Positions 54,246-57,355 of a stretch of DNA of 64,000 bases are shown piece after piece. How positions within the stretch are numbered: the first letter of the stretch is position 1; every line of letters starts with the position of its first letter. The stretch comes from Escherichia coli. Its GTDB lineage: Bacteria; Pseudomonadota; Gammaproteobacteria; Enterobacterales; Enterobacteriaceae. The position numbers and the translations under genes are program-made. Below the pieces are notes generated by a model. It worked only from the letters and a program-made list of their open reading frames with translations, did no database searches and was not told where the DNA came from. The DNA lies in NCBI RefSeq assembly GCF_022846255.1, contig NZ_AP025682.1. One strand, 5' to 3'.

Positions 54246-54474
54246 TCCTCTGATTTACAAAACACGCTAATTCGTCTCCCATAAACCATGACGATTAAGA
54301 TTTATACATAATGCGCTACATTGAGGAATTCCCTGAATGTGACGCAAATCACTTCAAAGAGTGAGCAACAGTCAGTATCATCATGTGAGTTAAACCCTCG
54401 CCGCCTGACGGTGAGGGTTTTCTTTTGGGTATGTTTATCTGCGACACTCGCAGTACCGACGACATGGAGTAAAA

Positions 54475-54885
54475 ATGTCCAGACCAACTATCATCATTAA
54501 CGACCTTGATGCCGAACGCATCGATATTCTGCTGGAGCAACCCGCCTATGCTGGTTTGCCAATCGCCGACGCGTTAAACGCAGAGTTGGATCGCGCCCAA
54601 ATGTGTTCGCCAGAAGAGATGCCACACGACGTGGTGACAATGAACAGCCGGGTTAAATTCCGCAATCTTAGCGATGGCGAAGTGCGTGTGCGCACGCTGG
54701 TGTATCCGGCAAAAATGACCGACAGCAATACTCAGCTTTCCGTTATGGCTCCGGTAGGTGCCGCACTGCTGGGGCTGCGCGTTGGCGATTCCATTCACTG
54801 GGAACTTCCGGGCGGCGTTGCAACCCACCTTGAAGTGCTGGAACTCGAATACCAGCCAGAAGCTGCTGGCGACTACCTGCTTTAA
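54475..54885 (+). CDS. rnk: regulator of nucleoside diphosphate kinase (GreA/GreB-like C-terminal domain)
   Basis: 136-aa translation recognised as Rnk. Confidence 0.9.
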
Positions 54886-54918
54886 TCCCATCTGCACAAG
54901 CGATAACTCGCTTTGCCC

Positions 54919-54944
54919 AGAGGATGCACTCGCATCCTCTTTCC
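54919..54944 (+). terminator. rho-independent terminator after rnk
   Basis: agaggatgc-actc-gcatcctct followed by ttcc. Confidence 0.55.
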
Positions 54945-55027
54945 GCTCAAATATCAACCAGATTTATCATTTTGCGCTTAAGCGCAGCATTCTAATCTGA
55001 ACTGGTTATTCATCTGCGGAACCTCAT

Positions 55028-55117
55028 ATGAGCGAAGCTCTCGGTATCACTGCATTTTATATATTCATAGCCGCAATTATTGTTGCTGCAGTGCTATACC
55101 TTGAACAACGCTGGTAG
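55028..55117 (+). CDS. candidate small hydrophobic protein (29 aa), unverified
   Basis: ATG 55028 to TAG 55115-55117 read directly: MSEALGITAFYIFIAAIIVAAVLYLEQRW; single predicted TM helix; weak SD; below the ORF-track length cutoff. Confidence 0.3.
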   Translation: MSEALGITAFYIFIAAIIVAAVLYLEQRW

Positions 55118-55240
55118 CGCCTGGTTTTATTTATTTTCCAGCTCAATAGCAAATTCAGATCAAATCAGCCTCGCAAATCATAGATTCATAACCAATAATG
55201 TGCTGTTATGTATACATGCAAAAACAAGGAGAGAATGCTT

Positions 55241-55669
55241 ATGTACAAAACAATCATCATGCCAGTGGATGTTTTCGAAATGGAATTGAGCGACAAAGCG
55301 ATTCGCCACGCTGAATTCCTCGCCCAGGATGACGGAGTTATTCATCTACTTCACGTACTACCGGGGTCAGCCAGCCTGAGCCTGCACCGTTTTGCCGCTG
55401 ATGTACGTCGTTTTGAAGAGCATCTGCAACATGAAGCAGAAGAACGTTTGCAAACGATGGTCAGCCACTTTACCATCGATCCTTCCCGCATTAAGCAACA
55501 TGTCCGTTTTGGTAGTGTGCGGGATGAAGTTAACGAGTTAGCGAAAGAACTTGATGCAGATGTAGTAGTGATTGGTTCGCGTAACCCATCAATTTCAACT
55601 CATCTGTTGGGTTCTAACGCCTCGAGCGTAATCCGCCACGCCAATTTGCCGGTGCTGGTTGTGCGTTAA
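55241..55669 (+). CDS. uspG: universal stress protein G
   Basis: ORF 55208..55669; start set at [26 protein letters not shown] with aaggagag SD; 142 aa. Confidence 0.9.
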
Positions 55670-55703
55670 TTGCCAGAATAAGTATCCCGCCCTGCCCGGA
55701 GCC

Positions 55704-55722
55704 ATCCCTGCAGGGCTTTTTA
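55704..55722 (+). terminator. terminator after uspG
   Basis: ccctg-cagggc followed by ttttt. Confidence 0.5.
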
Positions 55723-55728
55723 ATGCAA

Positions 55729-55760
55729 TAAAAAAGCCGCCAGGTTTGACCCCGGCGGCT
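55729..55760 (-). terminator. rho-independent terminator after ahpF (minus strand)
   Basis: reverse complement agccgccggggtcaaacctggcggctttttt. Confidence 0.65.
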
Positions 55761-55789
55761 AAGCAATTACAGGTGAATCTTACTTCTTC

Positions 55790-57355
55790 TTATGCAGTTT
55801 TGGTGCGAATCAGGTAGTCAAAAGCACTCAGAGAGGCTTTGGCACCTTCGCCAGTGGCGATGATGATCTGCTTGTACGGAACCGTCGTACAGTCACCCGC
55901 TGCGAACACGCCTTTGACGTTGGTTTCGCATTTCGCATCAATGATAATCTCGCCCATGCGATTACGTTCGACTGCGCCTTCCAGCCAGTTGGTGTTCGGC
56001 AGCAGACCAATCTGGACGAAAATACCGGCCAGTTCGATGTTGTGAATATCGCCGCTGACACGATCGCGATATTCCAGACCTACGACTTTGCTACCGTCGC
56101 CTTTCACTTCCGTGGTTTGCGCATTCAGAATAATGTCGACGTTTTTCAGGCTGCGTAGTTTGTCCTGCAGAACCTGGTCGGCTTTCATTTCTGGCGCAAA
56201 TTCCAGCAGCGTTACGTGCTCAACGATACCCGCCAGGTCAATTGCCGCTTCCACGCCGGAGTTACCGCCGCCGATAACCGCTACGCGTTTGCCTTTAAAC
56301 AGCGGGCCGTCGCAGTGCGGGCAATAGGTCACGCCTTTGGTGCGATACTGATCTTCGCCAGGAACGTTCATGTTGCGCCATTTTGCACCAGTCGCCACGA
56401 TAATGCTGCGTGCTTTCAGTACCGCGCCAGAAGCTGTTTCAATCTGATGCAAGCCGCCTTCAACCGCTGCCGGGATCAGTTTGCTCGCGCTCTGGCTGTC
56501 GATCACATCAACGTCGTATTCATCAACATGAACTTTCAGCGCACCTGCCAGTTTCTGGCCTTCGGTCTTCGGTACAGAAATGTAGTTTTCGATATCAACG
56601 GTATCGAGGATCTGACCACCAAAACGTTCGCCCATCAAACCGGTACGGATGCCTTTACGTGCGGAGTAAATTGCTGCCGCTGCACCCGCCGGGCCGGAAC
56701 CAACGATTAATACGTCATAAGCATCACGCTTATTCAGCTCTTCTGCCGCACGTTTTTCCGCACCAGTATCAATTTTGGCAACGATTTCAGTCAACGTCAT
56801 GCGGCCCTGACCAAACTCTTTCCCGTTTACGAACACTGCCGGAACGCCCATCACGTTGCGATCGGTGATTTCGTTCTGGAAGGTGCCGCCGTCAATTGCA
56901 GTGTGCTTGATGCGCGGGTTCAGTACGCTCATCAGGTTCAGCGCCTGCACCACGTCCGGGCAGTTGTGGCAAGAGAGCGAGTAATAGGTTTCGAATTCAA
57001 AATCACCGTCAATATGGCGAATCTGCTCCAGCAGAGACTGCGCTTCTTTCGACGGATGACCACCGGTCCACAGCAACGCCAGTACCAGCGAGGTGAACTC
57101 GTGGCCCAGCGGGGAGCCTGCAAAACGTGGTCCCTGGTTGGAACCTGGGTTGGTGATCAGGAAAGACGGCTTACGCACCGGCAAGCTGTTATCTTCTTTA
57201 AAGGTGACTTTGTCTGACAGTTCTGCGATTTCAGCCAACAGTTCCTTGATTTCTGCCGATTTAGCGCTGTCATCCAGCGTGGCAATTAACTCAACAGGCT
57301 TGGTCAATTTCTCAAGGTAAGCCTTGAGTTGAGTTTTCATATTTGTGTCGAGCAT
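55790..57355 (-). CDS. ahpF: alkyl hydroperoxide reductase subunit F
   Basis: ORF 55790..57385; start set at [16 protein letters not shown]...; two redox CxxC centres (CHNCPD, CPHCDG) and FAD/NAD GxGxxG motifs. Confidence 0.95.

What the first reader, a model, noticed from the sequence alone, without database searches (positions are those of the whole stretch)
55028..55117. Unannotated 29-codon hydrophobic ORF between rnk and uspG
Reading from ATG 55028 gives MSEALGITAFYIFIAAIIVAAVLYLEQRW, a single predicted transmembrane helix with charged termini, sitting just downstream of the rnk terminator. The size and composition resemble small membrane proteins and type I toxins. The ribosome-binding site is weak (gga about 6 nt upstream), so it may be poorly translated or spurious.
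Basis: seen in the sequence. Interest (0 to 1): 0.35.

Follow-up and report, generated by a model that had tools for sequence, protein, structure and literature searches.

The report
Known small membrane protein gene yldA
The 29-codon ORF is real, but it is the already named and annotated E. coli small membrane protein gene yldA, here in a divergent form carried by about a third of E. coli strains, and its function has not been tested.

Summary
The ORF at 55028-55117 (+) exists and translates exactly as reported. It is not new. RefSeq genomes identical over this region annotate it as "small membrane protein YldA" (WP_001287361.1), and it passes the NCBIfam equivalog model NF041476 (59 bits, cutoff 45). 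The K-12 homologue (b4734) was shown to be synthesized by chromosomal SPA tagging (VanOrsdel 2018).

An ORF of this size is expected by chance; conservation is what shows it is a gene. It is always 29 codons and always lies about 130-150 nt downstream of rnk in Escherichia, Citrobacter and Enterobacter. Substitutions are almost all synonymous: 7 synonymous and 0 non-synonymous versus E. albertii, and 12 versus 2 for the E. marmotae-type allele.

The window allele is only 52% identical in protein to the K-12 allele. It lies in a 276-bp segment that replaces K-12's 1.6-kb ybdR-yldA segment. Complete E. coli genomes carry one allele or the other (1817 versus 3605 of 5426).

The type I toxin idea has no support. 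YldA appears to be a paralogue of YoaI, which binds EnvZ. YoaI's functional Glu31 aligns with the invariant Glu26 of YldA. This suggests, but does not show, that YldA modulates a larger membrane protein. Already known; low interest.

The parts
55028..55117 (+). yldA coding sequence (29 codons plus TAG). This is the 'MSEALG...' allele found in about a third of E. coli and in E. albertii.
   Evidence: ORF and translation. Annotated as yldA in identical RefSeq genomes. NCBIfam NF041476 59 bits against cutoff 45. Synonymous-dominated substitution.
55018..55021 (+). Weak Shine-Dalgarno-like GGAA, 6 nt before the ATG.
   Evidence: Read directly from the sequence. A GGA/GGG/AGG patch sits at the same spacing in K-12, E. 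albertii, Citrobacter and Enterobacter loci even though the rest of the upstream sequence differs.
54919..54945 (+). rnk 3' hairpin (AGAGGATGC-ACTC-GCATCCTCT) followed by TTTCC. Presumed rnk terminator, possibly leaky into yldA.
   Evidence: -15.5 kcal/mol, z -4.0. The stem is invariant and the loop variable across genera. Not called by the terminator scan because the T run is short.
54947..55222 (.). Haplotype-specific segment of 276 bp (yldA plus both flanks). It replaces 1611 bp of K-12 that hold ybdR, the K-12-type yldA and the region upstream of uspG.
   Evidence: blastn against K-12: homology ends at 54946 and resumes at 55223. The global alignment shows no nucleotide similarity outside the ORF.
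54475..54885 (+). rnk, the conserved upstream neighbour of yldA.
   Evidence: rnk lies 130-150 nt upstream of yldA in all loci with enough flank.
55241..55669 (+). uspG, the downstream same-strand neighbour in this haplotype (123-nt gap, no detectable terminator between them).
   Evidence: The fold of 55095-55150 is not different from shuffles.

Best explanation
The ORF is yldA, a real and already annotated gene for a 29-residue single-pass inner-membrane protein.

Shown here:
- The reading frame, its 29-codon length and its position about 140 nt downstream of rnk are conserved across Escherichia, Citrobacter and Enterobacter.
- The frame evolves under strong purifying selection at the protein level.
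- The window carries the 'MSEALG' allele. E. albertii, the E. marmotae-type sequence and a cryptic Escherichia clade share this allele and also lack ybdR, so it is probably the ancestral Escherichia form.
- The K-12-type allele arrives together with ybdR and resembles Citrobacter YldA more closely.

Shown in the literature, for the K-12 allele only: the protein is made in LB culture.

Inferred:
- Residues 5-25 form one transmembrane helix, with a short periplasmic N-terminus (MSEA) and a cytoplasmic tail (EQRW).
- YldA is a paralogue of YoaI.
- Like YoaI, which binds and stimulates the sensor kinase EnvZ through Glu31, YldA most likely modulates a larger inner-membrane protein, possibly a histidine kinase. 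Contacts would be through its helix and the invariant juxtamembrane Glu26, which aligns with YoaI Glu31.
- Transcription is either read-through of the weak rnk terminator or an unmapped promoter in the 142-nt spacer.
For: Identity:
- RefSeq genomes 100% identical over 54880-55250 annotate 'small membrane protein YldA' here.
- The exact protein is in NCBI under that name on at least 1000 contigs.
- NF041476 gives 59 bits against a cutoff of 45.

Expression of the homologue: K-12 YldA is one of 36 chromosomally SPA-tagged small proteins detected by immunoblot (PMC6001520).

Coding signature:
- Versus E. albertii: 7 nt differences, all at third positions and all synonymous.
- Versus the E. marmotae-type allele: 12 synonymous and 2 non-synonymous, dN/dS about 0.03.
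- Versus K-12: 11 of 12 residues in AAIIVxAVLYLE are kept, while 8 of those codons differ synonymously.
- The flanking DNA carries indels and is unalignable between haplotypes.

Family:
- A degenerate DNA pattern for the conserved motif hit 18 metagenome loci. Every one is a 29-codon ORF, and rnk lies upstream wherever the contig holds enough flank.
- A profile search of 1.84 billion representatives found 60 hits. The full-length ones are 29 aa with the consensus MxExxxITLxFLIxAAIIVxAVLYLERHW.

Population: 1817 genomes carry the window type and 3605 the K-12 type, together 5422 of 5426. No genome was counted with both alleles.

YoaI paralogy:
- Every YldA variant hits the YoaI model NF041475 in the same register, E 5.5e-8 to 2.5e-4.
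- hhalign of the YldA profile against YoaI gives probability 93.5% and E 2.4e-7.
- YoaI scores 21 bits on a YldA HMM. The maximum over 5000 composition-matched shuffles is 13 bits, and eight other small hydrophobic E. coli proteins score at most 4.5 bits.
- Cedecea davisae YoaI lies at the syntenic yeaK/yeaL locus, ends in SVLYLERRW and hits the YldA profile.
- YoaI Val27 and Glu31 align with YldA Val22 and Glu26. Glu31 is required for EnvZ binding and activation (PMC11429745 section 12).
Against: - No experiment addresses YldA function, localisation or topology, and the window allele itself has never been tagged.
- The Pfam YldA model scores this allele only 22.9 bits, below its gathering score of 27.
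- The reciprocal hit of YoaI on the NCBIfam YldA model is weak (14 bits, E 0.035).
- Similarity between two 30-residue transmembrane peptides can partly reflect shared constraints on a helix.
- YoaI's invariant Ser26 is Ala in YldA.
- No sigma-70 promoter-like site was found upstream, so how the gene is transcribed is unknown.
- VanOrsdel et al. do not list YldA among the 13 of their proteins that a tetracycline ribosome-profiling screen also detected.
- The C-terminal motif was used as the search pattern, so its invariance in those loci is partly by ascertainment. The comparison with K-12 and the profile search are free of that bias.
Confidence: 0.8

Rival explanations
1. YldA is a type I toxin: a small hydrophobic peptide that damages the inner membrane when made, and is normally silenced by an antisense RNA.
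For: Its size, single hydrophobic helix and weak ribosome-binding site resemble such toxins. In K-12 the convergent ybdR transcript overlaps yldA, so an antisense transcript exists in that haplotype (PMC12288877). Overexpression of the paralogue YoaI delays growth (PMC11429745).
Against: - No match to any toxin family in Pfam or NCBIfam at E up to 1.
- No Rfam sRNA and no promoter-like site on the minus strand in 54300-55900.
- The window haplotype lacks ybdR, so it has no convergent partner.
- The DNA downstream of the ORF is poorly conserved even within Escherichia, so no conserved antisense gene lies there.
- The 5' region has no significant structure (z 0.44).
- The gene is single-copy, present in 5422 of 5426 E. 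coli genomes, and syntenic across genera.
- The tagged protein accumulates in normally growing K-12.
- Conserved acidic residues at both ends are unlike the usually basic tails of known toxins (own knowledge).
Confidence: 0.04
2. The ORF acts in cis: it is an upstream ORF or leader whose translation tunes uspG (123 nt downstream on the same strand in this haplotype) or stabilises the rnk 3' end, and the peptide itself is unimportant.
For: No terminator is detectable between yldA and uspG in the window. The same-strand rnk-yldA-uspG order is also found in E. albertii and Citrobacter.
Against: The peptide sequence, not merely the act of translation, is conserved: dN/dS is about 0-0.1 among close lineages, and an invariant motif is kept through saturated synonymous change. 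In K-12-type E. coli and in Enterobacter, yldA is followed by the convergent ybdR rather than by uspG, yet it is equally conserved. The tagged K-12 product accumulates stably.
Confidence: 0.05
3. The ORF is a chance reading frame in an AT-rich intergenic region and is not a gene.
For: 71% of shuffles of the intergenic region contain an ATG ORF of at least this length. The ribosome-binding site is weak, and no promoter was predicted.
Against: The exact 29-codon frame with the same start and stop positions is kept in every lineage found, through more than 45% nucleotide divergence, and the differences concentrate at third codon positions. Among the 40 window-type matches listed in a spread down the whole ranking, the only one without a yldA annotation is the weakest match, HS-02, which has scattered single-base indels. 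The K-12 homologue gives a protein band.
Confidence: 0.01
4. YldA is a functional small membrane protein, but its partner is not a sensor kinase. It instead stabilises or regulates a transporter or enzyme, as MgtS does for MgtA, or is a subunit of a membrane complex.
For: Known enterobacterial small membrane proteins have varied partners: MgtS acts on MgtA and PitA, and MgrB on PhoQ, as reviewed in PMC11429745. Conserved adjacency to rnk offers no obvious link to a kinase. YoaI's growth effect is independent of EnvZ, so the family may have other partners.
Against: The only functional information for any relative (YoaI) points to a histidine kinase, and the residue responsible is the one conserved in YldA. 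That evidence is weak and indirect.
Confidence: 0.3

Closest known systems
YldA of E. coli K-12 (b4734, YP_009518757.1; NCBIfam NF041476, Pfam PF23689)
   Same: - 29 residues, same start and stop register.
- Lies about 140 nt downstream of rnk on the same strand.
- Shares M1, E3, A4, I7 and the motif AAIIVxAVLYLE.
- Both pass NF041476 (59 and 57.9 bits).
- RefSeq gives both the same name.
   Different: - Only 52% protein and 54% nucleotide identity, far below the usual within-species level.
- The N-terminal half and the last three residues differ (EQRW versus ENHS).
- This allele falls below the Pfam gathering score (22.9 versus 73.6 bits).
- The K-12 allele is followed 3 nt later by the convergent ybdR, whereas here the next gene is uspG on the same strand.
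- Protein synthesis was shown only for the K-12 allele.
YoaI (b1788, 34 aa; NCBIfam NF041475), a PhoB-induced small membrane protein that binds and activates EnvZ
   Same: - One transmembrane helix followed by a 4-residue tail beginning with Glu.
- Alignment in a constant register (YldA residue n with YoaI residue n+5); hhalign probability 93.5%.
- YoaI's invariant Val27 and Glu31 are Val22 and Glu26 here.
- A syntenic Cedecea YoaI has a YldA-like C-terminus.
   Different: - Below the YoaI equivalog cutoff (30 bits against 45).
- Five residues shorter at the N-terminus.
- Different locus (rnk rather than yeaK/yeaL).
- YoaI Ser26 is Ala21 in YldA.
- No evidence of PhoB control, and no partner is known.
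Type I toxins of E. coli (Hok, Ldr, TisB, Ibs, ShoB, DinQ, Zor)
   Same: A short hydrophobic single-helix peptide encoded in an intergenic region.
   Different: - No family match and no antisense RNA.
- No structured leader.
- Single-copy and present in essentially all E. coli genomes, rather than multicopy or patchy.
- The tagged homologue accumulates in growing cells.

Membership tests
YldA (NCBIfam NF041476 equivalog / Pfam PF23689) | Significant full-length match to the family profile | tested here: met
   NF041476: 59 bits, E 3.2e-16, cutoff 45, residues 1-29 on profile positions 1-29. Caveat: the Pfam PF23689 match is significant (E 9e-5) but scores 22.9 bits, below the gathering score of 27. 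That model strongly favours the K-12-type allele, which scores 73.6 bits.
YldA (NCBIfam NF041476 equivalog / Pfam PF23689) | 29-residue product with the motif AAIIVxAVLYLE and an acidic residue at position 3 | tested here: met
   Alignments A2 and A3. M1, A21, L23, L25 and E26 are invariant, and I7, A16, V19 and V22 are kept in at least 90% of 24 diverse sequences. The window protein has all of them.
YldA (NCBIfam NF041476 equivalog / Pfam PF23689) | Position immediately downstream of rnk on the same strand | tested here: met
   The gap from rnk to yldA is 142 nt in the window, 137 in K-12, 140 in E. albertii, and about 130-150 in Citrobacter and Enterobacter loci.
YldA (NCBIfam NF041476 equivalog / Pfam PF23689) | The public annotation pipeline gives the identical sequence this name | tested here: met
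   WP_001287361.1 'small membrane protein YldA' in LF82 and in all listed 100%-identical genomes. Exact-sequence look-up gives the same name.
YldA (NCBIfam NF041476 equivalog / Pfam PF23689) | The protein is actually synthesized and inserted in the membrane | not testable with these tools
   SPA-tag immunoblot exists only for the K-12 allele (PMC6001520). Membrane location is predicted from hydropathy only.
YoaI (NCBIfam NF041475 equivalog) | Score above the equivalog cutoff | tested here: not met
   30 bits against a cutoff of 45. The hit is significant (E 4e-7) but indicates a paralogue, not a YoaI.
YoaI (NCBIfam NF041475 equivalog) | Locus between yeaK and yeaL | tested here: not met
   The window gene lies between rnk and uspG. 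K-12 yoaI lies between yeaK and yeaL.
YoaI (NCBIfam NF041475 equivalog) | Invariant Ser26, Val27 and Glu31 (PMC11429745) | tested here: inconclusive
   In the hhalign register, Val27 aligns with Val22 and Glu31 with Glu26, both kept. Ser26 aligns with Ala21, so it is not kept.
Type I toxin-antitoxin | Cognate antisense or overlapping sRNA | tested here: not met
   No Rfam family other than the rnk leader at E up to 1. No minus-strand promoter-like site in 54300-55900. The downstream DNA is not conserved. An undescribed sRNA cannot be fully excluded without RNA-seq.
Type I toxin-antitoxin | Similarity to a known toxin family | tested here: not met
   No Hok, Ldr, TisB, Ibs, ShoB or DinQ model among the Pfam or NCBIfam hits at E up to 1.
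Type I toxin-antitoxin | Toxicity on expression | not testable with these tools
   No data for YldA. The tagged K-12 protein is tolerated at native levels.

The most novel reading that the evidence does not exclude
YldA is a second member of a YoaI/YldA family of 'connector' peptides. It docks on the cytoplasmic side of a sensor kinase (EnvZ or another) through the invariant Glu26. The two ancient E. coli alleles share the C-terminal half but differ at 14 of 29 positions, mostly in the N-terminal, periplasm-proximal half. They could therefore give strains different partner specificity or signalling strength, which would make this a natural polymorphism in two-component cross-talk.
Probability: 0.2. 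Interest if true: 0.5.

Novelty: already known. Interest (0 to 1): 0.15.

Why it matters
As a discovery it does not matter. The gene has been named since 2018, has NCBIfam and Pfam models, and is annotated in RefSeq at exactly these coordinates in identical genomes.

Its value is as a positive control for the first-stage reader, which picked out a genuine 29-codon gene from sequence alone.

Two by-products may be useful to people who work on small proteins:
- E. coli carries two deeply diverged yldA alleles. They are tied to the presence or absence of ybdR and split the species roughly 1:2.
- YldA appears to be a paralogue of YoaI, and the glutamate that YoaI needs to bind EnvZ is conserved. 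This gives an uncharacterized protein a concrete experiment: two-hybrid tests against histidine kinases, and an E26A or E26Q mutant.

The papers I could search do not mention either point.

Tried and rejected
- The search for related loci on genome contigs chose the variable N-terminal peptides as patterns. I replaced it with my own degenerate DNA pattern on metagenome contigs.
- To pass the 30-aa minimum of the representative search, I used a 33-aa N-terminally extended gene call (P0028) as the first row of the alignment. The extra columns did not become profile positions.
- blastn at word size 11 finds no similarity between the two yldA alleles. Only a global or codon alignment shows it.
- The promoter scan found nothing between rnk and yldA. 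Several -10-like hexamers seen by eye (TCTAAT at 54991-54996, TATCAT at 54966-54971) lack a credible -35 at a proper spacing, so I make no promoter claim.
- There is no terminator after yldA.
- An Rfam hit to snoZ223 on the minus strand at 54940-55022 (24 bits against a gathering score of 45, E 0.16) is a eukaryotic family and was dismissed as chance.
- Supplementary tables of VanOrsdel 2018 and of the YoaI paper are not held. The Weaver 2019 preprint text does not mention yldA. I therefore have no ribosome-profiling evidence for or against translation.
- UniRef names the C. koseri YldA 'Protein MgtR'. I did not compare the two sequences here and did not follow the name up.

Full report
**Observation.** The window has an ATG at 55028 that opens a 29-codon frame ending with TAG at 55115-55117. 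The ORF lies 142 nt after the stop codon of rnk (54475-54885) and 123 nt before the start of uspG (55241-55669), all on the + strand. ahpF is convergent further on.

The hydrophobic core spans roughly residues 5-25. The best 19-residue Kyte-Doolittle window is residues 5-23, with a mean of 2.67. The core is flanked by Glu3 and by Glu26/Arg28.

The rnk 3' hairpin (AGAGGATGC-ACTC-GCATCCTCT, 54919-54940) is stable (-15.5 kcal/mol, z -4.0). It is followed by only three U residues, so the terminator scan did not call it. A GGAA sits at 55018-55021, which leaves 6 nt before the ATG.

On its own the ORF is unremarkable. 71% of shuffles of the 355-nt intergenic region contain an ATG ORF at least this long, and 43 ORFs of 20 or more codons overlap the surrounding 2.5 kb.

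**Identity.** A megablast of 54880-55250 against 5,426 complete E. coli genomes found records that are 100% identical, including LF82 and NRG 857C. All of the listed ones annotate 'yldA: small membrane protein YldA' between rnk and uspG. In LF82 the CDS (WP_001287361.1) maps exactly onto 55028-55117.

The protein scores 59 bits on the NCBIfam equivalog model NF041476 (cutoff 45). On Pfam PF23689 'YldA-like' it scores 22.9 bits, E 9e-5. That is significant but below the gathering score of 27. An exact-sequence look-up finds it in NCBI under the same name on at least 1000 contigs. The title word 'unannotated' therefore does not hold against public annotation.

**Experimental status.** yldA was named by VanOrsdel et al. 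2018 (PMC6001520). They placed an SPA tag on 80 chromosomal short ORFs of MG1655 and detected 36 products by immunoblot in LB culture. YldA (MAEAFYILIGFLIMAAIIVMAVLYLENHS, between ybdR and rnk, 643330-643419) is in their table of detected proteins.

It is not among the 13 proteins they report as also seen in a tetracycline ribosome-profiling screen. Elsewhere in the searchable literature yldA appears only in two gene lists. One is a table of genes affected by NaF (PMC10100675). The other is the list of convergent 'excludons', where ybdR-yldA is one entry (PMC12288877). I found no functional study.

**A divergent allele in a replaced segment.** Against K-12, the window is 98.3% identical up to 54946, just past the rnk hairpin. 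It is 95% identical from 55223 onward, starting 18 nt before the uspG ATG. The 276 bp in between have no blastn match to the 1611 bp that K-12 holds there, which comprise ybdR, yldA and the region upstream of uspG.

The two yldA alleles have the same length but share only 49 of 90 nucleotides and 15 of 29 residues.

Searching each 90-nt allele separately gives 1817 genomes with the window type and 3605 with the K-12 type. Together these make 5422 of 5426 genomes, the same number that match the shared flanks, and every match covers at least 80% of the allele. E. coli is therefore dimorphic at this locus, and essentially no complete genome lacks the gene.

E. albertii, the E. marmotae-type sequence (L009) and a cryptic Escherichia clade (L005) all carry the window-type allele and also lack ybdR. 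This form is therefore probably ancestral in the genus. The K-12-type allele is closest to YldA of Citrobacter amalonaticus and C. farmeri (72-76% identity). That fits acquisition of a ybdR-yldA segment from outside Escherichia, but this is an inference.

**Evidence that it is a coding gene.**
- Between the window and E. albertii the ORF has 7 differences, all at third codon positions and all synonymous. The flanking spacers carry indels and clustered substitutions.
- Versus the E. marmotae-type allele there are 12 synonymous and 2 non-synonymous differences (dN/dS about 0.03). In codons 2-14, which the search pattern did not constrain, the count is 7 synonymous and 0 non-synonymous.
- Between the two E. 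coli alleles, synonymous sites are saturated (pS 0.80). Even so, 11 of the 12 residues of AAIIVxAVLYLE are identical, and 8 of those codons differ at the third position.
- A degenerate DNA pattern for that motif hit 18 metagenome loci. Every hit sits in a 29-codon ORF with the start and stop in the same register.
- Wherever enough flank was available, rnk lies 130-150 nt upstream.
- Exact-sequence look-ups name these proteins YldA of Citrobacter, Enterobacter and 'Enterobacteriaceae'.
- A profile search of 1.84 billion cluster representatives returned 60 hits at E up to 0.001. The full-length hits are 29 residues, with the consensus MxExxxITLxFLIxAAIIVxAVLYLERHW.
- All lineages keep a G-rich patch at about -7 to -11 from the ATG, although the rest of the upstream sequence differs.
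- The only window-type record I saw without a yldA annotation is HS-02, the weakest match, which has several scattered single-base indels.

**Type I toxin hypothesis.**
- No Pfam or NCBIfam toxin family matches at E up to 1.
- An Rfam scan with permissive thresholds finds only the rnk leader (RF01771, 54321-54429) and two chance-level hits.
- There is no promoter-like site on the minus strand.
- The region around the start codon folds no better than shuffles (z 0.44).
- The DNA downstream of the ORF is poorly conserved even within Escherichia.
- The gene is single-copy, near-universal and syntenic across genera.
- The tagged K-12 protein accumulates in growing cells.

None of this tests toxicity directly, but nothing supports the toxin reading.

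**What it most likely does.**
- Every YldA variant tested also hits the NCBIfam model for YoaI (NF041475). The register is always the same (YldA 3-29 on YoaI 8-34), with E from 5.5e-8 to 2.5e-4. YoaI reciprocally hits the YldA model, but weakly.
- hhalign of a 24-sequence YldA alignment against YoaI gives 93.5% probability and E 2.4e-7 in that register.
- On an HMM built from the YldA alignment, YoaI scores 21 bits. The maximum over 5000 composition-matched shuffles is 13 bits, reversed YoaI scores -0.9, and eight other small hydrophobic E. coli proteins score at most 4.5.
- The YldA profile search also recovered P0076 from Cedecea davisae. NCBI names it YoaI and it lies at the syntenic yeaK/yeaL locus. 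It has a YoaI-like N-terminus (MNDPAFFDTLCIT) and a YldA-like C-terminus (SVLYLERRW).

I conclude that YldA and YoaI are paralogues. The papers I could search do not mention this.

YoaI is a PhoB-induced membrane peptide that binds EnvZ and stimulates EnvZ-OmpR. Its invariant residues are Ser26, Val27 and Glu31, and the E31A and E31Q mutants lose both binding and activation (PMC11429745). In the alignment these positions correspond to YldA Ala21, Val22 and Glu26, all conserved within the YldA family.

By analogy, YldA would sit N-out/C-in with Glu26 at the cytoplasmic face, and would modulate a larger inner-membrane protein, possibly a histidine kinase. This is inference only. No partner, phenotype, topology or regulation is known.

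**Transcription.** This remains open. The conserved rnk hairpin with a poor U-tract, together with the fixed spacing, suggests read-through from rnk. No terminator separates yldA from uspG in this haplotype.

**Verdict.** The small-membrane-protein reading is right, the toxin reading is unsupported, and 'spurious' is refuted. Interest is low. The allelic dimorphism and the link to YoaI are modest, testable by-products.

Noticed in passing
window 54919-54945: The rnk 3' hairpin has a 9-bp stem (AGAGGATGC/GCATCCTCT) plus TTTCC that is invariant in Escherichia, Citrobacter and Enterobacter loci, while the 4-5-nt loop varies (ACTC, ACCT, GTCC, AGCC, AGACC, ATACC, GCTC). This is tighter conservation than at synonymous sites of the neighbouring genes. 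It is presumably the rnk terminator, but the U-tract is poor.
   Followed up: partly
window 54947-55222 (versus K-12 641885-643495): E. coli is dimorphic here. In 1817 of 5426 complete genomes a 276-bp segment with this yldA allele replaces a 1611-bp segment carrying ybdR, a 52%-identical yldA and a different sequence upstream of uspG. uspG therefore has a different promoter region in the two haplotypes, and uspG itself is only 95% identical.
   Followed up: partly
L025 2703-2906 (metagenome scaffold ERZ28624427): A 67-codon chimeric ORF (P0039). Codons 1-19 of the window-type yldA are fused to the K-12-type upstream region and a complete K-12-type yldA, followed by a convergent gene at the position ybdR occupies in K-12. 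There is no long shared k-mer at the junction. It is a single contig, so it could be a real recombinant between haplotypes or an assembly artefact. None of the complete genomes shows it.
   Followed up: partly
L026 4001-4138 (Cedecea davisae, GCA_018906695.1): A YoaI orthologue at the yeaK/yeaL locus has a YldA-type C-terminus (SVLYLERRW). It hits Pfam YldA and my YldA profile, and so links the two small-protein families.
   Followed up: yes
window 54321-54429: The Rfam rnk leader (RF01771) matches at 124.9 bits, full length. It includes the attenuator-like hairpin at 54392-54420 that the terminator scan also picked up.
   Followed up: no
protein P0045 (Citrobacter koseri YldA): UniRef names this YldA family member 'Protein MgtR', while NCBI names it YldA. 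The UniRef name is probably an automatic one.
   Followed up: no
L027 (E. coli HS-02, NZ_CP172818.1 630519-630605): This is the only window-type record seen without a yldA annotation. It has several single-base insertions and a divergent 3' end across the ORF and its leader. It is either a pseudogene or a result of long-read indel errors.
   Followed up: partly
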